DNA of 64,000 nt, taken from positions 620,001-684,000 of the forward strand of contig NW_027117343.1 in NCBI RefSeq assembly GCF_038025025.1, read 5' to 3'. Below, piece after piece: positions 1 through 7,784 of this stretch. The translations under genes were made by a program, and so were the position numbers. Positions within the stretch are counted from its first letter, which is position 1. Every line of letters begins with the position of its first letter. Under the pieces are notes generated by a model, which worked only from the letters and a program-made list of their open reading frames with translations, made no database searches and was not told the DNA's origin. Origin of the DNA: Phyllosticta citribraziliensis (lineage: Eukaryota).

Positions 1-359
1 TGCCGTATCCTCAGGCCATTGAAGGCGTGCATCCGCCACTCAAATTCGCCGTGAGCTACTCTGGTTTTGCACCTGCTGCCAATGAGCTCTACCAGGCTTT
101 CTACGAACCCAAGATCAAGACTCCAATGCTGCATTTCATTGGAAGCCTGGACACCGTGGTAGAGGAGACTCGGAGCTTGCGGTTAGTCGACGCATGCGAG
201 AAGAAAGAGGGCCGAGTTGTATACCACCCGGGTGGACACTTCTTGCCCAGTCAGAAGCAACCCGTTAGCGCACTGGTCGGCTTCATTAGGGAGATCATGG
301 CAGAGGCTGAAGGTGCGAATAAAGAAGAGAGCGTCGAGGACATGGACGTGCCTTTCTAG
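1..359 (+). CDS. Serine hydrolase FSH1/OVCA2 family, 3' part (gene starts upstream of window)
   Basis: Motifs PPLKFAVSYSGF, PMLHFIGSLDTVV and VYHPGGHFLP match the C-terminal Asp/His catalytic region of FSH1-type alpha/beta hydrolases; the frame is open from the window edge to TAG at 357-359. Confidence 0.8.
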   Translation, partial: PYPQAIEGVHPPLKFAVSYSGFAPAANELYQAFYEPKIKTPMLHFIGSLDTVVEETRSLRLVDACEKKEGRVVYHPGGHFLPSQKQPVSALVGFIREIMAEAEGANKEESVEDMDVPF

Positions 360-597: not shown

Positions 598-2275
598 TCA
601 ATGCACCTTGCTCGTCTTGCCCTTGTCAACCTTGGTGGGCTGGATCCTGGCCATCATCTCCTCCTTGGTAATGAGGTGGTCGATCCGTTCAAGCAGGCCA
701 AGCAAGCTCCTCATGTTTCCGCTCCACTCGTTCAAAACGTCGTCCGCATCGCGAGGCTTGGCAAAGTTGACAATCTTGGCCGGACGGTCAATCTTGGCAT
801 AGATTGTCTTGGACGTGACGAGGTCACTGATGTACTTCTCCGTCTCGTCCTCGTTCAGGTCGAGGAGCTCCCGAAGACGGGGGATCTGGATGCGCGTGTA
901 GTACTTGGCAACGACGCGCACGTTGTGCTCGATCACCCTCTTGCGCAAGTCCTGCCATCTTTGATTTGCCTTGGGGTCGGTGGACTGGCCAAGCTTCTCG
1001 TCGAAAATGTCGGTGGAACACAGGTGCTTGCCAAATTGCTGCTCAATGATCGGCCACCTCATCAGCTCCGGAATGGTGAAAAGCTTCAGAAGTTGAGCCT
1101 CTGAGGGAATCTGAGCGTTGCGGGAGTCTTTGAAGATGCGGTGAAGAAGATCTGACTGTTCGTTGTCGTGGGGCGCGAGGATGACAAAGTAAATGACGCG
1201 TTGAAGCACCTGCCAATGTTAGTGATGAGCGTTTGTAAAAGTCCGTTTACTCACAGCCTTCAGCTTCTCGGGGTCCTCCTCCACAGCCTCCGTGTCCAGG
1301 ACCTGTCTGTAGTGCTTGCACGCCTCGAGGTACTTGTCATCGTGCTTGGACAACAAGATCTGCTGCTCGTAGTAGCGCAGCTTGAGGTCCGTCACGTCAT
1401 CCTCCGGTTCGACAGGAGGATCGTCCACACTTCGGTTCTTCTCAGCCTCCTCCCGTTCCTTCTTCTCTTTCTCGAGTTGTTCCGGAGTCTTCTTCGGCTT
1501 CCTGGCAAAGTATCTTGTGCTGATCTTCCGGCTCAGAATGCCAGCCGACGTCCAGTCTCCCTTCTCGATGCACAGTGCCACCTGCTCCAGGATGAACTCG
1601 GTCTTCTCCCTTCGCGTCATCGAACCAAATGTCTCGACTTGCAGCTCGCACAGAATGTCCGTTGCCGATTTGATATCGCCTTGCTGCTTCTTGATGTCCG
1701 AGAGAATGCGGGTCACCCTCGCGCGCTCAACCTCGACGAAGATCTGATTCCAAACATTAGCGCTCCCCATGTGTGAAGACTGAAGCTGTTTACCTTGCCC
1801 TCCGTAACCGTCCTCAAAGTCTCAATCACCGAAAGCTTGGTCTCCAGGTTGGGAGTGTCCTCCAAGAAGCTCATGACCACCTGGACCATCTTCGTGATGG
1901 CCTGCTTGAGTTGACCATGCTTCTTGGACAGGAGCAGAACCTGCTCGTTCAAGAGGCTCCAGTTTGCTTTGGTTTTGCATAGTGTGACGATGGTGACGAT
2001 GATGCGGGAGGTAGATGCGAGGTCGGATGCCTGATTATCGTGAGCACGAGGATGCGAGAGGAAGTGGAGAATATCGGCGTACTTGGCGAGTCTGCTTCTC
2101 CAGCGCGAGCAGCTTCTCGATTGCCGCTTGCAGGTTTGTCTACTCTATGCATTAGCACGCCGGCTCTGTGTTTGGTGCGCAAAAGACCGACCTGCGCGAG
2201 CGTCTCAGCCTCTGGAATCGCCGCGTCGACTTCCTTCGAGAAGTCCTTCTCGGCTCTGAGGACTTCACCGGACAT
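598..2275 (-). CDS. RPN5: 26S proteasome lid subunit Rpn5 (PSMD12), multi-exon
   Basis: MSGEVLRAEKDFSKEVD, LLSKKHGQLKQAITKMVQ, ELQVETFGSM and PCI-domain VIEHNVRVVAKYYTRI...AKIDRPA motifs are spread over several exons separated by short GT-AG introns. Confidence 0.96.
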
Positions 2276-2838: not shown

Positions 2839-4991
2839 TCAAAGCAACTTCAAATCTGGAACATCAACTTCCTTCTCAACGCCATTCAACTTGCCACCAA
2901 GGGAGACTCCGCCATTGACAAGCCTCTTTGACGTCTTTTGAGTAGCCACCGAATCGCGCCCGCACCTTGCGAGGACCTTTTTGGACACCGACTTGACATA
3001 ACCGACAGCAGCCCTCTTCTTCTTGTCCGAATCCTTGGACAAATCCGGTGACCACAGATTCATGCTGTCGCGGAACTTTTGCGCCTGCACGACGAGGGTT
3101 GGAACATTCTCGGTGTCTCCCCACGCCTTGATTTCCCGATAAGCCCGGTCTCGCTCCTGCTTCTCGCCGGACAGGCAGGCAATGAGCAGCGTTTTGTTCG
3201 CTTGCTTGTTGGGTGGCTTCAGCAGTCGAGAAAGCTCCGCTTGGCCAAGACGAGATGGAGTAGTGTGGATGCATGGAGGTAAGTCGACGCTGTCGCTCTT
3301 CAACGCACCATACTTCTGAAGAGCGCCGAAGAATTTGCGAAACATGGCTCTGCAGTCCCAGTCGCATTCTTTCCCGACATGCAGAAGGAGCATGTCTTGG
3401 GATCCACAGATTCGCTGGACGCTGCTCTGGGGCGTCTTTGGCGGATCTGGGACTACGGCCTGCTCCATTTGAACCTTCTTGATCTTGATCCCGAATCGGT
3501 CCTTCGAAAGTCAGCTTTCACTCTTGGAAATCCGAAGCGTTTGATTCATACGTTTACCTGATCGAGCTTGAGCAAGTCGCCGAAAGAGTTCTCGTCGCAG
3601 CTTCCGACATTCTCTGCATGCTTCTCGGAGAACAGCCTGCTCACAGCGACGGGGAGTTGCTCGGGCAGCTCGTCGATTGGCTGATCCGTCTCTATCCAGA
3701 GCAGCTCAAGTGGAATCCACGTCGGCTTTTCAATGGTGCCGGTGTTGGCGAGGGGCCATTTGGGGTAGCGAAGTCTGGTACCCGGAAAGACGTCTGCAAT
3801 TTCACGTCAGTCTGGACCCGCAGTCATAGGAGGACTCAACTGTCGAAAACGAGCAGTGAACATGTTGCTGCTGTGGCTGTTGCACCAACTTCTTGGGTTC
3901 ACCGGGATAGGCATGTACTTACGATTCTCAAAGTGTCCCTTCACACTCAACAGCTCCGACTGACCACCAGATGTCCTAGGCGCACAACGAAACTTGGTGT
4001 CCTCGGCATTGCTACCAAAGGCGCAGATGCGACGCAGCTTGCCTTCCACATGGATGTCGAATCCGTCCAGTATCTTTGGCTGGCAACTCTCACCATCCTC
4101 CTTTCGTTGGCCAGCCCCAAGGTAATTGTATCGCACTTTGATGTGGGAGCAAACCTTCTCAATCAGCTCCATGACATCATTGGGAATGGTGTCCTTGTCA
4201 TCCCGAGACGCGAGGCTTTCAACGAACTTGGAAAAACTGCCTTCAGCGAGAAAAGTGCGTGAAAGGGGCGTGAGCTTCAAGAGACAACCGGCGCGCGTAA
4301 AAGAAACGGCTACACCACGGCGGACCTGGAAGGACCTTTAATTCAACACATGCTCGGGAGTCGCGTCAAAGTACTGATTCTTGCCCACCAAGCACCACCC
4401 TTCGACTCCATTCTTCTTCGCCTTCCACACCTGCGCCCTCGCAAACGCCTGCATAGCGCACTCCAGAAAACGAAACTGATCCGCAGTCAACGACGCGGCT
4501 GAGGAACCCACCGGAAGAGCACGCGGCACGGCCATGTCTTTGTCAACCAACTCGACCACGACGCCGAAACGACCACCGGCACCCGTCGGCGCGTGGAGCT
4601 CAAAGTCAGCACGGTCCTCAGACGCCGCGTCCTTCTTGTCCAAGGACCACTCCGGAACCGAGAAGATTCGATCGCAGCCGTTTGTCCAGTGGCAGTCGGG
4701 CTCGATGCCCAGCGCGTCGAACACCAGCGGCATGAGTTGCCGTTGCCGCCACTTGCTGTGCAGCCTGCAGCGCTCGGTACCCTCTGCGGCGCCTGGTGGC
4801 AGCGGTTTGTAGAAGCAGACGCGCCAGACGGAGACGGTGTCGTACGTGAACTGCGACGTGTCGGGGCGGTACAATAGGGGCGTCGAGTTGGTCGTCGTCG
4901 GCGCATCTTTCTCCTTGACGTCGCGGGACAGGCAGAGACGCCGCATGCTTTGCGCCAGGGAGCAATCCTGCTGAGAATGCGCCATCGACAT
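2839..4991 (-). pseudogene. Divergent Argonaute-derived gene (N-L1-PAZ-L2-MID, no PIWI), with an in-frame TAA at 4338-4340
   Basis: Exons 4991-3923, 3793-3558 and 3501-2839; introns 3922-3794 (GTAAGT..CTGAC..CAG) and 3557-3502 (GTAAAC..CTGAC..AAG) preserve frame. PAZ motifs SVKGHFEN-H and LRYPKWPLANTGTIEKPTWIPLELLWI, L1-like VGKNQYF and QVRRGVAVSF, L2-like FGIKI, MID-like AYREIKAWGDTENVPT and YVKSVSKKVLARCG. Confidence 0.72.
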
Positions 4992-6164
4992 TGAGAACAA
5001 CCGTAAAAGGCTGAAGTGGTTGAATTTGACTGCTTAGCTGTGGAGCAGGACAAAGTACGAACGAAACGAGGCAAAATTTCAGCGAGTCAGCGATCTTTCT
5101 TCTCGTCCAGAGCGGCCGCTCGGCACCCTTTTGTACTCCTCCGGCAAACATGATGCTTTGCCCTCTCGTGTCTACTCCATGTGTGCAGACAAATACCGCT
5201 CAGCGATTGCGGCAGCGCGAAACTCCAAACTCACAAATCACAACCGTGTGTATGCTGGACAGGGGCACAGCCGTTATGTCGAATCAGAAACAAGCTCGTC
5301 CACAAGTCAAACCAAGCCACAAAAGTGGTGGCTGCACAACACGAGTAGTGAAGTAGACAGACGAGAGGGGTGGGAGGGGGAGGGGAGGTTGCAAGACAAA
5401 CAACAGACGTGCTGCGCAGCCATCCAAAAACCTAGAATCCAAGAAGAAAAGAGACTATCGTCATCACCCACCTGAATCGAACAGGATATAAGATGGCTGT
5501 CTCAAGATTCCAAGCGAGTTGAATGATAACGCCAAGGCATAGCCCAACTTCAAGGGCGGGCAGCTTGTGTAAGTGCCATAGATTGCTTGAGACGATGCGG
5601 CGGTGTCCAGACCTCGATGTGCGGAGGCAGGAGATTGTTTGTGGTCTTGAGGTCGTGGAATTGTGGTGGAGGGCAGTTGGTTCTGTTGATTCACTCACCC
5701 GGCACAGAGGTAGCGCAGGCAGGTGGAGTTAACACTCAAGGTGCATGCCAGATTTCTACGCACTCTCTCAACTGGAAGGCGCCCGGTCAACGGCCAAAAC
5801 AAAAACCTCTGCGCCGGCGACTCAGTCACGTCTCCAACACCTTCGCCCACGGCGGTTTTCGCACCTTGCCAACGACACAACACCACGCACGCCTCTTGCT
5901 TACCAGAGCTGTTCTGCTCGCCTTCGAAGTCGTCTTCCTCATTGCATTGAACAAGACCTCGCTCGATCGTTTGCGGTCACCACCTTGATCTCCACCCTGT
6001 GCACATCACCGCCCGCGCGTCGCCTCGGTGCACCTCACCTGACCCTGTCCCGCTGATTCGATTGCGCTCATCGACACTGGCGTCCATCCTCCCTTCACCT
6101 TGGCATCGCGACCGCATTTGCTCATCCACCGCCTTGGATGCACCTCCAGCTTTGAGACGGAATC

Positions 6165-7784
6165 ATGCCAGACACCCCAGAAGATCCACCTCCTGCCAAG
6201 AGGCTCAAGAATTCACCCGACACAGAAGACGGCCACAAAGATGCGCTTATTGCGGTGGAGGTCAAGAAGGGAAGCCCCTTGACGTCGCTGGCGCCAGAGC
6301 TTTTCAAGATGATCATGGACAGGACGGTGGATCCTGATGATCACCAGTCGTTCAAGAATATGGTGGCAAAGCGATCCGTCAGCAGTGAGTCTCCTCTAAC
6401 CTCCATGTATCCCACTCTTGCCCTCTAGCAAGCTACTGACACGTAATCAGGGCTGTTTAATGCCGAAATCCTCGATCTCGTAATCAGAAATCGGGACCAG
6501 CCCGGTACTGTTCGTTACTGGTCTTCCCATGGACACTCCTTCTTGAAGATTGCATTGCTCGAAAACAGGTTCTTGGCAGAGCCAAACGACCAAAAGCTGC
6601 TCCTGGCCACGATCCATCATGTCGTCACAGAAATTACAGATCTTCAAGGCGACCGGTCGGAGAGAAATCGCCGCAAATGGACCCGACACGCGTGCTCTTG
6701 CATCGCCCGATTCAGACATACCAATCCAGTTTCGAGCTTGAGGGTCATGGTAGACAATACGGAAGACGGTCAGACGACGTTCCGAGAGGAGGACGTTCGC
6801 CGCAGCTGCTGGGCAGTTGTTGCTTGGAGTGGGGATGTAACTTTGCTCGAGAAGCTGAAGTCTGCAACGGGTGGTGCTGCTCCGAAGAACAGGAGCGAGT
6901 GTCCTCGCTTCATGGGCTCCGCTCAGTGGACAGCATCGCGCAGGGGCCACATCCCAGTAATAAGATATCTCCAGCTCGAGGGATACGACTTTGGACAGTG
7001 GGAGCACAACAAACCTCTCGAAGCTACAGTGCACTCACGGAACTTGGAGGCGTTCGAGCTTCTACTTACCCGTTCTGGCGATGAAGTTGCTGAGGAGTTC
7101 CGGGCCGTTGGACATATTTTGATTACGTCGGGCTGGACGCGATGGGCGAGGCTCTTCTGGGCCGAAAACCGTTCCTACAATCAGACACCCGCAAACACCT
7201 CGCATCTGATGATTCTTTGCCTCGCGGGAGAACACAACCACGCAGAAATGACGAAACTTCTCATTGATGCGGGAGCGGAGCCGAACGTCTACTGCAGGAC
7301 CTGGTGTGAGTATCCATTCAGAACGGCGGTTCGCGTTGGGCCACCGGAGCTCGTGCGGGCCTTGATCGAGAACGGAGCAAGTCCGCAACGAGGAAATCTC
7401 GGAGACGAATCATTTGACCCACTTCGCACGGCGATCGACTTTCGGAAACAAGGTATCGTCGAGTTGCTGCTGGAATACGGTTCATGGCAGACATTGACCA
7501 AGACAAACGCGTTGCTTGCTGCCGTCATCGCCGGCCCTCCGGAACTGCGTCCTGGAAAAGATCACCCAAGTCGACCCGGCCACATCGGCATTCTCAAAGT
7601 GCTTCTGCAAGGCTTTGATCCCAATTCCTCCAAGCGTGCGAAGAACCTTGGACGCGAGGCTGTTGCGCGCGCTCGCCAAGATGGCAAGTCGGAGATGCTT
7701 GCCATGCTACTCGAGCACGGCTGCGAACTGGAGCCTGAGCCTGAGGCTGGGAAGAAGACGCGCCGCAGACGCAAGAAGAAATGA
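6165..7784 (+). CDS. Ankyrin-repeat protein with N-terminal F-box-like motif (paralogue A)
   Basis: Exon 6165-6384, intron 6385-6450 (GTGAGT..CTGAC..CAG), exon 6451-7784. LTSLAPELFKMIM is F-box-like; ankyrin-like repeats include KLLIDAGAEPN, PFRTAVRVGPPELVRALIENGA and PLRTAIDFRKQGIVELLLEYG; basic C-terminal KKTRRRRKKK. Confidence 0.8.

What the first reader, a model, noticed from the sequence alone, without database searches (positions are those of the whole stretch)
2839..4991. PIWI-less Argonaute derivative (N-L1-PAZ-L2-MID only) next to RPN5
Seen: splicing two canonical introns assembles a ~655-codon frame carrying Argonaute-order motifs: N-domain WTNGCDRIFS, L1 VGKNQYF/RRGVAVSF, PAZ SVKGHFEN..LRYPKWPLANTGTIEKPTWIPLELLWI, L2 FGIKI, and MID AYREIK..GDTENVPT..KKVLARCG. 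It stops ~40 aa after the MID end with no GxDVxH PIWI motif, and only ~560 bp remain before the RPN5 start, too little for a PIWI domain. Known: eukaryotic Argonautes need MID plus PIWI for guide binding and slicing; the MID 5'-phosphate pocket is Y/K/Q/K(K). Here Y, K and K/R are kept and Q is replaced by L. Inference: either a decayed Ago or a distinct family of slicer-less PAZ-MID proteins, such as a small-RNA decoy or adaptor in fungal RNAi or meiotic silencing. The strong divergence with preserved PAZ core and splice sites suggests it evolved for a long time in this form.
Basis: partly seen in the sequence, partly recalled or inferred. Interest (0 to 1): 0.8.

Follow-up and report, generated by a model that had tools for sequence, protein, structure and literature searches.

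The report
PIWI-less Argonaute relic, broken here
This fungal gene is a real descendant of the RNA-silencing protein Argonaute that has lost its cutting (PIWI) domain and is shared by several Phyllosticta species, but in this genome a premature stop codon interrupts it.

Summary
The minus-strand gene at 4991-2839 is Argonaute-derived. It has N, L1, PAZ, L2 and MID domains and ends about 20-40 residues into what was the first PIWI strand. Pfam sees nothing. Support comes from a family profile that hits 24 of 26 outside proteins carrying Piwi and/or PAZ, hhalign at 99.8%, and an AlphaFold model that matches human AGO2 residues 43-574 at Z 24.1. No PIWI remnant lies anywhere in the 64 kb window. 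RPN5 starts 563 nt downstream.

It sits inside the L1 stretch VGKNQYF...RRGVAVSF, which 4 of 4 orthologue models read as coding. The public 634-aa model removes it as a 63-nt "intron". Contigs of two other runs carry the same TAA.

Orthologues occur in five Phyllosticta species. Their open frames cannot be explained by neutral drift (0 of 300 simulations). The nearest PIWI-bearing relatives, from Saccharata and Diplodia, have already lost slicer residues.

Verdict: a genus-restricted PIWI-less Argonaute derivative, probably freshly disabled in this genome. Its function is untested.

The parts
2839..4991 (-). Whole coding region of the Argonaute-derived gene: ATG at 4991-4989, stop at 2841-2839
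   Evidence: P0001 (634 aa) maps exactly onto the window.
4485..4880 (-). N domain (residues about 38-169)
   Evidence: The model aligns from residue 39 to hAGO2 residue 43. Identity is 130 of 132 to P0033 and 113 of 132 between P0033 and P0002. Domain edges are approximate.
4245..4484 (-). L1 linker (residues about 170-249), holding VGKNQYF and RRGVAVSF
   Evidence: hhalign aligns from query residue 201 to the canonical fungal Argonaute L1. ArgoL1 was found in the matched proteins.
4323..4385 (-). 63-nt segment annotated as an intron in P0001. It is conserved L1 coding sequence in the orthologues.
   Evidence: P0002, P0003, P0004 and P0033 all read it as VGKNxYFDATxExxLxYxxFQ. In the model it forms strands E199-202, E206-209 and E216-218.
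4338..4340 (-). In-frame TAA, codon 218, where orthologues have Tyr
   Evidence: Contigs of X1 (0 differences) and X2 (one C>T, which cannot lie on T-T-A) carry the same bases. P0005 ends here.
3794..3922 (-). Intron 2 (GTAAGT...CAG), inside the PAZ coding region
3681..4244 (-). PAZ domain (residues about 250-394), interrupted by intron 2; includes LRYPKWPLANTGTIEKPTWIPLELLWI
   Evidence: Model 250-394 matches hAgo2 PAZ 227-350: Z 14.8, rmsd 2.2 A, 115 aligned. The family-only profile hits 3 of 3 PDB PAZ chains at E 0.13-0.2.
3502..3557 (-). Intron 3 (GTAAAC...AAG). An alternative donor GTATGA 6 nt further on is used in the P0002/P0033 models and adds Val-Asn.
3415..3680 (-). L2 linker (residues about 395-464), interrupted by intron 3; includes FGIKI
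2959..3414 (-). MID domain (window residues about 465-616), with AYREIK, GDTENVPT and KKVLARCG
   Evidence: Model 467-618 matches the N. crassa QDE-2 MID (2xdy) at Z 13.1, rmsd 2.6 A, 125 of 127 residues, and the Arabidopsis AGO MID (3vnb) at Z 13.2. Motif table.
2842..2958 (-). C-terminal tail of 39 residues, predicted disordered. RLVNGGVSLGG aligns with the first PIWI strand MVVGADVTHPG.
   Evidence: pLDDT is below 50 for residues 619-657. Column table. tblastn of P0022 residues 123-234 reaches window position 2884.
600..2275 (-). Downstream neighbour RPN5 (proteasome lid subunit)
   Evidence: PSMD12/CSN4_N at E 2.9e-48, PCI at 7.6e-21, RPN5_C at 1.2e-16. The ATG at 2275 was read from the ORF list.

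Best explanation
The locus is a true Argonaute descendant that lost its PIWI domain in the Phyllosticta lineage. What remains is N-L1-PAZ-L2-MID plus a short disordered tail holding a vestige of the first PIWI strand. It arose within a fast-evolving Argonaute paralogue clade of Botryosphaeriales (Saccharata, Diplodia) that had already lost slicer residues. In other Phyllosticta species the 655-657 codon frame has been kept open by selection. There the protein is probably made, and it cannot slice or bind GW partners. The most likely activity is non-catalytic binding of RNA ends through PAZ and a MID pocket that keeps Tyr, Lys, Lys and Arg, making it a competitor or adaptor for small RNAs. This activity is inferred, not shown. 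In this genome a Tyr-to-TAA change at codon 218, inside a conserved L1 beta-sheet segment, interrupts the frame. The annotated 63-nt intron is most likely a gene-caller's way round the stop. This copy is therefore probably a freshly disabled allele that encodes only the 217-aa N-terminal piece. Rough odds: Argonaute-derived and PIWI-less 0.95; selection on the frame in sister species 0.85; non-functional here 0.6; RNA-end binder or decoy 0.25.
For: Homology. The profile of 3 family members found 29 proteins at E<=1e-3. Of the 26 outside the family, 20 carry Pfam Piwi, 4 more carry PAZ, and 2 carry nothing. hhalign of the family-only profile against 13 canonical fungal Argonautes gave 99.8%, E 3.8e-28, over 355 columns from L1 to MID. 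The ESM Atlas best hit scored 0.93 with 185 of 256 features, and 10 of 10 top named clusters are PAZ/Piwi.

Fold. The model has pLDDT 77.5. Every listed Foldseek PDB row is an Argonaute or PIWI-clade protein, best E 5.3e-21. VIA gives Z 24.1 to hAGO2 residues 43-574, and separate PAZ and MID matches at rmsd 2.2 and 2.6 A.

No PIWI. The orthologues end at the same place, and there is no PIWI hit in the 64 kb.

Origin. The family (SH-aLRT 100) joins Saccharata (80) and Diplodia (95). Those relatives read GAS for GAD, RSG or REG for RDG, and WHAR or YYSG for YYAD.

Selection. 0 of 300 unconstrained simulations reach 70% identity without a stop, with a mean of 9.6 stops, yet P0002 and P0033 are open. 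Indels in relatives' coding sequence are in frame: +TTG at 3193, and three 1-nt losses at 4899-4912. Conservation is graded: N 86%, L1 81%, PAZ 71%, L2 68%, MID 61% between P0033 and P0002.

The stop. TAA is at 4340-4338. The segment is coding in 4 of 4 orthologue models. The same bases appear in X1 and X2 contigs. P0005 stops there. An X1 contig runs colinear through the 63-nt segment and intron 2 with no differences.
Against: No Pfam Argonaute model reaches even E=10 on P0001 or P0002, or E=1 on the single exons. A single-sequence PDB search found no Argonaute. The good model was built with an alignment that includes Argonautes, so its Argonaute-like fold is not independent of the sequence homology. 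With only 4 family sequences the model was useless (pLDDT 34.2).

The 437 codons after the TAA are fully intact, and the segment has GT..AG ends and a length divisible by 3, so splicing rescue is possible. The TAA allele is found in several data sets, which fits a tolerated or fixed state.

Among the 18 listed differences in exon 4, 12 change the residue and 6 do not (a truncated subset). This suggests weak constraint on MID and the tail.

The P. citricarpa and P. capitalensis models (366 and 476 aa) lack the MID exon. This is either annotation read-through of intron 3 or real loss; I could not see those genomes.

The tree joins long branches, and the program warns that such joins may be false.

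No binding or expression data exist.
Confidence: 0.6

Rival explanations
1. The gene is functional in this genome. The 63-nt segment has become a real intron (intronization after the nonsense change), and a 634-aa protein lacking 21 L1 residues is made.
For: The segment has GT...AG borders and a length of 63 = 3 x 21. There is no further stop or frameshift in the remaining 437 codons, which are 94% identical to P0033. The TAA allele is present in X1, X2 and a second public model, so it is not a private error.
Against: The donor GTGGGC is weak, and I see no CTRAY-like branch site near the 3' end (read; the consensus is recalled). The segment is conserved coding sequence in 4 of 4 orthologues and aligns to the canonical Argonaute L1. 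It forms three strands at pLDDT about 85-90. The only contig that bridges it in the possibly-RNA run X1 retains it, and no joint was reported there. At 94% identity a single stop is what neutral change would give anyway: mean 2.1 stops, and 43 of 300 runs with none.
Confidence: 0.25
2. The whole family is a dead relic: a truncated Argonaute pseudogene decaying in all Phyllosticta species, with gene models forced by annotation pipelines.
For: The trajectory looks like decay. Slicer residues are lost in the nearest relatives. PIWI is lost. There are very long branches, with a stem of 2.38 changes per column. There is a nonsense codon here, shortened models in two species, and mostly residue-changing differences in exon 4 (12 of 18 listed).
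Against: Open frames of 655 and 657 codons at 70% and 94% identity are not expected without selection: 0 of 300 simulations at 70%. Indels in coding parts keep the frame. Conservation is patterned, with invariant blocks in N, L1, PAZ and the MID core LLIACLSGEKQERDRAYREIK.
Confidence: 0.12
3. It is one half of a split Argonaute. The N-PAZ-MID protein works with a separately encoded PIWI-containing partner, as bacterial short Argonautes work with APAZ proteins.
For: There is only the analogy, which is recalled and not tested, plus the retained vestige of the first PIWI strand at the C-terminus.
Against: No PIWI-coding sequence lies in the 64 kb window. No stand-alone PIWI protein surfaced among the 29 profile hits. 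The genome itself is not held, so it could not be searched.
Confidence: 0.03

Closest known systems
Canonical fungal Argonautes (QDE-2 type; here P0007 Dothistroma septosporum, P0017 and others)
   Same: Same domain order from N to MID. L1, PAZ and MID motifs align (hhalign 99.8%). The MID fold matches the QDE-2 MID at rmsd 2.6 A. The Y-x3-K of the 5'-phosphate pocket is kept.
   Different: There is no PIWI domain, so no catalytic tetrad, no PIWI half of the guide channel and no tryptophan pockets. No Pfam Argonaute model fires. The NLALKFNAKLGG motif is replaced by SVSKKVLARCG.
Botryosphaeriales divergent Argonaute paralogues (P0006 Saccharata proteae, 877 aa; P0009/P0034 Diplodia 'argonaute-2'; P0022 cluster)
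   Same: They are the nearest relatives in the profile search (E 2.2e-20) and in the tree. They share the lineage-specific AVGY...RC(A)G helix, a one-residue deletion after WG(D/E)xE, and TLVV/TVFV in place of TxCV.
   Different: They still have a full-length PIWI, although it is predicted slicer-dead (GAS, RSG/REG, WHAR/YYSG). They have lost the MID Tyr (His or Gln), which the PIWI-less family keeps.
APAZ partner proteins of prokaryotic short Argonautes (recalled, not tested here)
   Same: They are Argonaute N-terminal-lobe-like proteins that exist without a PIWI domain of their own.
   Different: APAZ proteins lack PAZ and MID, are bacterial, carry effector domains, and work with a neighbouring MID-PIWI gene. 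None of this is seen here.
Truncated or PIWI-lacking Argonaute gene models noted in genome surveys (for example a Medicago model; PMC3098777, search listing only)
   Same: An Argonaute-like gene model without PIWI.
   Different: Those are single-species annotations usually treated as fragments or pseudogenes. Here the PIWI-less form recurs in five congeneric species with open frames in at least two.

Membership tests
Eukaryotic Argonaute (AGO clade) | PIWI domain (RNase H fold) present | tested here: not met
   The protein ends 39 residues after MID. Only an 11-residue vestige aligns with the first PIWI strand. There is no PIWI hit by tblastn anywhere in the window.
Eukaryotic Argonaute (AGO clade) | Catalytic tetrad DEDH/D | tested here: not met
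   The columns are absent, and the first Asp column reads Gly (RLVNGGVSLGG against MVVGADVTHPG).
Eukaryotic Argonaute (AGO clade) | PAZ domain | tested here: met
   The fold matches hAgo2 PAZ at Z 14.8, rmsd 2.2 A, 115 residues. The family profile hits 3 of 3 PDB PAZ chains, weakly (E 0.13-0.2). hhalign covers it. The Pfam PAZ model itself does not fire.
Eukaryotic Argonaute (AGO clade) | MID domain with 5'-phosphate pocket residues (Y, K, Q, K, K in hAGO2; residue numbers recalled) | tested here: inconclusive
   The MID fold is met (Z 13.1 to 2xdy, 125 of 127 residues). Tyr and Lys of YREIK are kept. The Q position is Leu, but it is variable in fungal relatives. The K...K of the last helix reads K...R. 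The pocket's PIWI-side contacts are necessarily missing. No binding test was possible.
Eukaryotic Argonaute (AGO clade) | N and L1/L2 linkers in canonical order | tested here: met
   Model residues 39-620 align colinearly to hAGO2 43-574 (Z 24.1, 465 aligned, rmsd 12.9 A because the lobes are posed differently). hhalign is colinear over 201-581.
Eukaryotic Argonaute (AGO clade) | Recognition by curated Pfam models (ArgoN, ArgoL1, PAZ, ArgoL2, ArgoMid, Piwi) | tested here: not met
   There were 0 Argonaute families at E<=10 for P0001 and P0002, and 0 at E<=1 for the four exon translations.
Processed or decayed pseudogene | Frame-disrupting lesions and neutral substitution pattern | tested here: inconclusive
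   This genome has one nonsense codon and no other lesion. Sister species have open frames, which does not fit neutrality. Codon-level dN/dS could not be computed because no orthologous DNA was available.

The most novel reading that the evidence does not exclude
Phyllosticta species maintain, under selection, a stand-alone N-PAZ-MID 'half-Argonaute' that binds small-RNA ends without any PIWI domain. It would act as a natural sponge or adaptor that tunes RNAi, possibly cross-kingdom RNAi in these citrus-associated fungi. The TAA allele in this species would be a recent natural knock-out.
Probability: 0.2. Interest if true: 0.7.

Novelty: new variant of a known kind. Interest (0 to 1): 0.5.

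Why it matters
Eukaryotic Argonautes are defined by their PIWI domain. I found no description of a natural PIWI-less derivative kept open across several species. The searches were: Phyllosticta + Argonaute, 5 papers and none relevant by title or abstract start; six phrasings of 'lacking the PIWI domain', 4 papers of which 3 were listed, none on fungi; and term searches within the 2025 NAR Argonaute survey, with no mention of truncated or PIWI-less forms.

If the protein is made and binds RNA, it would show what the N-PAZ-MID part can do on its own. It would also offer a natural contrast between species with the intact frame and this species with the stop.

It is a practical warning too. The protein is invisible to Pfam, and the public model hides a nonsense codon inside an invented intron.

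Tried and rejected
- Pfam on the four exon translations and on P0001/P0002 gave no Argonaute family.
- A single-sequence PDB search found no Argonaute.
- The first AlphaFold run, with 4 family sequences, gave pLDDT 34.2 and was unusable.
- No whole genome is held for the window, so canonical Argonautes, a stand-alone PIWI gene and synteny could not be searched.
- The metagenome locus scan matched 127 pattern stretches, none of them a relative, so no orthologous DNA was obtained for dN/dS.
- The third word-based protein search, with profile A3, returned only 5 family rows and one basidiomycete Argonaute, adding nothing on Phyllosticta's own canonical Argonautes.
- Sequencing runs: no RNA holder is listed, and the kinds of X1 and X5 are guesses. 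No splice joint was reported in X1 or X5 at any of the three introns. Their contigs are colinear with the genome over the 63-nt segment and the covered parts of introns 2 and 3. The X1 contig depth was 8737 on the RPN5 end against 52-57 on this gene. X1 had no cover at 2401-2501 or 3310-3511. Because contigs show presence only and the RNA status is a guess, I draw no conclusion on expression or splicing from these.
- Earlier findings of this scan: none by place or by words.
- Rejected as the cause of the stop: a RIP-type mutation. Tyr (TAC/TAT) to TAA is a transversion, whereas RIP makes C-to-T or G-to-A transitions (recalled knowledge).
- Rejected: assembly or sequencing error for the TAA (P0005).
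Full report
**What is in the sequence**

The gene lies on the minus strand. The ATG is at 4991-4989 and the stop at 2841-2839. A public 634-aa protein, P0001 (named by its source as an uncharacterized protein of Phyllosticta citribraziliensis), maps onto the window without a mismatch. Its blocks are 4991-4386, 4322-3923, 3793-3558 and 3501-2842.

Intron 2 (3922-3794, GTAAGT...CAG) and intron 3 (3557-3502) are ordinary. A second donor, GTATGA, lies 6 nt further on and is used in the sister-species models, where it adds Val-Asn. However, codon 218 is TAA (4340-4338).

The P0001 model avoids the stop by declaring 4385-4323 (63 nt, GTGGGC...CAG) an intron. Another public model, P0005, simply stops there after 217 aa. 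It comes from a contig of a different length (1.72 Mb against 2.46 Mb).

**Is it an Argonaute?**

Curated models say nothing. No Pfam family matched the four exon translations at E<=1, and none of the Argonaute models matched P0001 or P0002 at E<=10. A single-sequence search of PDB sequences found no Argonaute.

- **Profile search.** A profile of three family members, searched against 1.84 billion representatives, found 29 proteins at E<=1e-3. Three are family pieces. Of the other 26, 20 carry Pfam Piwi (most also with PAZ, ArgoL1 or ArgoN), 4 carry PAZ without Piwi, and 2 carry nothing. The best outside hit is P0006 at E 2.2e-20.
- **hhalign.** The family-only profile (5 sequences) against 13 canonical fungal Argonautes gives 99.8% probability and E 3.8e-28. 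It covers 355 colinear columns, from family residue 201 (L1) to 581 (MID).
- **PDB with the family profile.** The 3 of 3 matches are Argonaute PAZ domains, but they are weak (E 0.13-0.2).
- **ESM Atlas.** The feature search puts PAZ/Piwi clusters in all ten top named places. The best scores 0.93 with 185 of 256 features.
- **Fold.** An AlphaFold model of the intact sister protein P0033 (94% identical to the window's product) has mean pLDDT 77.5 and pTM 0.64. It was built with a 36-row alignment that includes the Argonaute hits.
  - Foldseek lists only Argonaute and PIWI-clade proteins, best E 5.3e-21.
  - VIA aligns model 39-620 to human AGO2 43-574: Z 24.1, 465 residues, rmsd 12.9 A because the lobes are posed differently.
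  - The PAZ part (250-394) matches isolated hAgo2 PAZ at Z 14.8 and rmsd 2.2 A.
  - The MID part (467-618) matches the N. crassa QDE-2 MID at Z 13.1, rmsd 2.6 A, 125 of 127 residues.
  - Because the alignment held Argonautes, the model is not independent of the sequence evidence. With four family sequences alone the model failed (pLDDT 34.2).

**No PIWI**

Residues 619-657 of the model are disordered. In the alignment, RLVNGGVSLGG sits on the first PIWI strand MVVGADVTHPG of canonical Argonautes, and the protein ends about 25 residues later. P0033 ends at the same residue and P0002 about 20 residues earlier.

tblastn of eight PIWI-bearing Argonautes or fragments against the whole 64 kb gave significant hits only inside 4403-2884. 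Nothing matched their PIWI parts. The next gene downstream on the same strand is RPN5 (PSMD12/CSN4_N, PCI and RPN5_C domains). Its ATG is at 2275, 563 nt after the stop.

**Where it came from**

Named members come from five Phyllosticta species:

| Species | Model(s) |
|---|---|
| P. citribraziliensis | P0001 (634 aa) |
| P. citrichinensis | P0033 (657 aa), P0032 (209 aa) |
| P. citriasiana | P0002 (655 aa) |
| P. citricarpa | P0003 (366 aa) |
| P. capitalensis | P0004 (476 aa) |

The two short models read through intron 3 into a stop and so lack the MID exon. I could not see those genomes to tell annotation from loss.

The nearest outside proteins are from the same order, Botryosphaeriales. 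They are P0006 of Saccharata proteae and P0009/P0034 of Diplodia.

A quick maximum-likelihood tree used 27 of the 36 rows of A4; the nine short rows P0003, P0021, P0022, P0026-P0028 and P0035-P0037 were left out. It places the family (SH-aLRT 100) with Saccharata (80) and then Diplodia (95). All sit on very long branches (2.1-2.6 changes per column against a median of 0.64), and the program warns that such joins may be false.

Shared oddities support the grouping independently:
- the AVGY...RC(A)G helix in place of NLALKFNAKLGG;
- a one-residue deletion after WG(D/E)xE;
- TLVV/TVFV in place of TxCV.

These PIWI-bearing relatives have already lost slicer residues. They read GAS for GAD, RSG or REG for RDG, and WHAR or YYSG for YYAD. 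The likely history is therefore a slicer-dead, fast-evolving paralogue followed by loss of the whole PIWI domain in Phyllosticta.

The PIWI-less family keeps the MID Tyr and Lys (YREIK), while its relatives read His or Gln for the Tyr. The K...K of the last MID helix reads K...R in the family and in the P0022 cluster, while P0006 and the two Diplodia proteins do not keep it in those alignment columns. The hAGO2 residue numbers behind these names are recalled, not from a call.

**Is the family alive?**

Unconstrained substitution of the window's coding sequence down to 70% protein identity (the level of P0002) produced a mean of 9.6 stop codons, and 0 of 300 runs had none. At 53% identity, 0 of 300 runs had none. 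Yet P0002 and P0033 are open over 655 and 657 codons and colinear with the window.

In the relatives' contigs, the indels listed inside coding sequence keep the frame: +TTG at 3193, and three single losses at 4899, 4910 and 4912. This table was truncated, with 22 further rows not shown.

Conservation between P0033 and P0002 is graded:

| Region | Identical residues |
|---|---|
| N | 113 of 132 |
| L1 | 65 of 80 |
| PAZ | 103 of 145 |
| L2 | 49 of 72 |
| MID | 92 of 150 |
| Tail | 11 of 24 |

There are invariant blocks in all domains. Against strong constraint on the C-terminal exon, 12 of the 18 listed nucleotide differences in exon 4 change the residue and 6 do not. That table was cut to its best-supported rows, so this is only a hint. 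A proper dN/dS needs orthologous DNA, which I could not obtain.

**Is this copy alive?**

The 63-nt segment is coding in 4 of 4 orthologue models that cover it, with Tyr where the window has TAA. It aligns to the canonical Argonaute L1. It forms three strands in the model at pLDDT about 85-90. Its donor GTGGGC is weak, and I see no branch-site match near its 3' end (read; the consensus is recalled).

The TAA is not an error. A contig of run X1 has no difference over 3581-5300. A contig of the metagenome run X2 covers 3784-4648 with one C>T, which cannot fall on the T-T-A of 4338-4340. The holders may include the source sample, so the independence of these runs is not certain.

The rest of the frame is untouched. 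At 94% identity, one stop is about what neutral change would give (mean 2.1 stops; 43 of 300 runs with none). I therefore read this copy as recently disabled (about 0.6), with splicing rescue as the main rival (about 0.25). The run data cannot settle this: all are contigs, the RNA status of X1 and X5 is a guess, and no joints were reported at the introns.

**How it probably works**

Shown:
- the domain content;
- the absence of PIWI and of every catalytic residue;
- retention of the PAZ and MID folds and of the Tyr/Lys/Lys/Arg positions.

Inferred:
- Without PIWI the protein cannot slice. From established Argonaute structures (recalled), it also cannot form the MID-PIWI channel that holds the guide's seed, or offer the tryptophan pockets for GW proteins.
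- What remains could bind a 5'-phosphate (MID) and a 3' end (PAZ) weakly. The most likely role in species with the intact frame is a non-catalytic binder or competitor for small RNAs or for Argonaute-loading factors. I give that about 0.25.
- A split-Argonaute arrangement with a separate PIWI protein has no support here.

**Novelty and verdict**

This is a new variant of a known kind: a genus-restricted, Pfam-invisible, PIWI-less Argonaute derivative. I found no description of it (these were search listings and term look-ups only, and supplements were not consulted).

Its interpretation is partly supported. Interest is moderate. The family is a worthwhile target in the sister species, but the copy in this window is probably broken.

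Noticed in passing
window 4323-4385 (-): The public gene model P0001 hides a nonsense codon by declaring a conserved 21-codon L1 segment an intron. A second public model (P0005, 217 aa) ends at the stop instead. This is a clear example of annotation masking a lesion.
   Followed up: yes
window 3552-3557 (-): Intron 3 has two in-frame donors 6 nt apart (GTAAAC and GTATGA). The window's model uses the first, while the P. citriasiana and P. citrichinensis models use the second, adding Val-Asn.
   Followed up: partly
window 600-2275 (-): RPN5 proteasome lid subunit gene (PSMD12/CSN4_N, PCI and RPN5_C domains). An X1 contig covering its 5' end stops at 2371 and has depth 8737, against 52-57 for the contigs on the Argonaute-like gene.
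   Followed up: partly
window 3-359 (+): C-terminal part of an FSH1-type serine hydrolase, running in from the window's left edge (Pfam PF03959, E 1.1e-25).
   Followed up: no
window 6156-7784 (+): Ankyrin-repeat protein gene upstream of, and divergent from, the Argonaute-like gene (Ank_2, E 9.6e-17).
   Followed up: no
window 3067-3501, run X3: Run X3 holds two different versions of the locus over the same 435 nt (37 and 22 differences; depths 116 and 65). This means either two related organisms or two copies in that sample.
   Followed up: no
proteins P0006, P0009, P0034, P0022 cluster (not in the window): Botryosphaeriales carry a full-length but predicted slicer-dead Argonaute paralogue (GAS for GAD, RSG/REG for RDG, WHAR/YYSG for YYAD). 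In most of them the MID Tyr is replaced by His or Gln. One is named 'argonaute-2' by its source.
   Followed up: partly
window 2555 and 3581, run X1: Two X1 contigs end in Illumina adapter sequence exactly at 2555 and 3581. Position 2555 lies 284 nt after the stop codon and might mark a transcript end.
   Followed up: no
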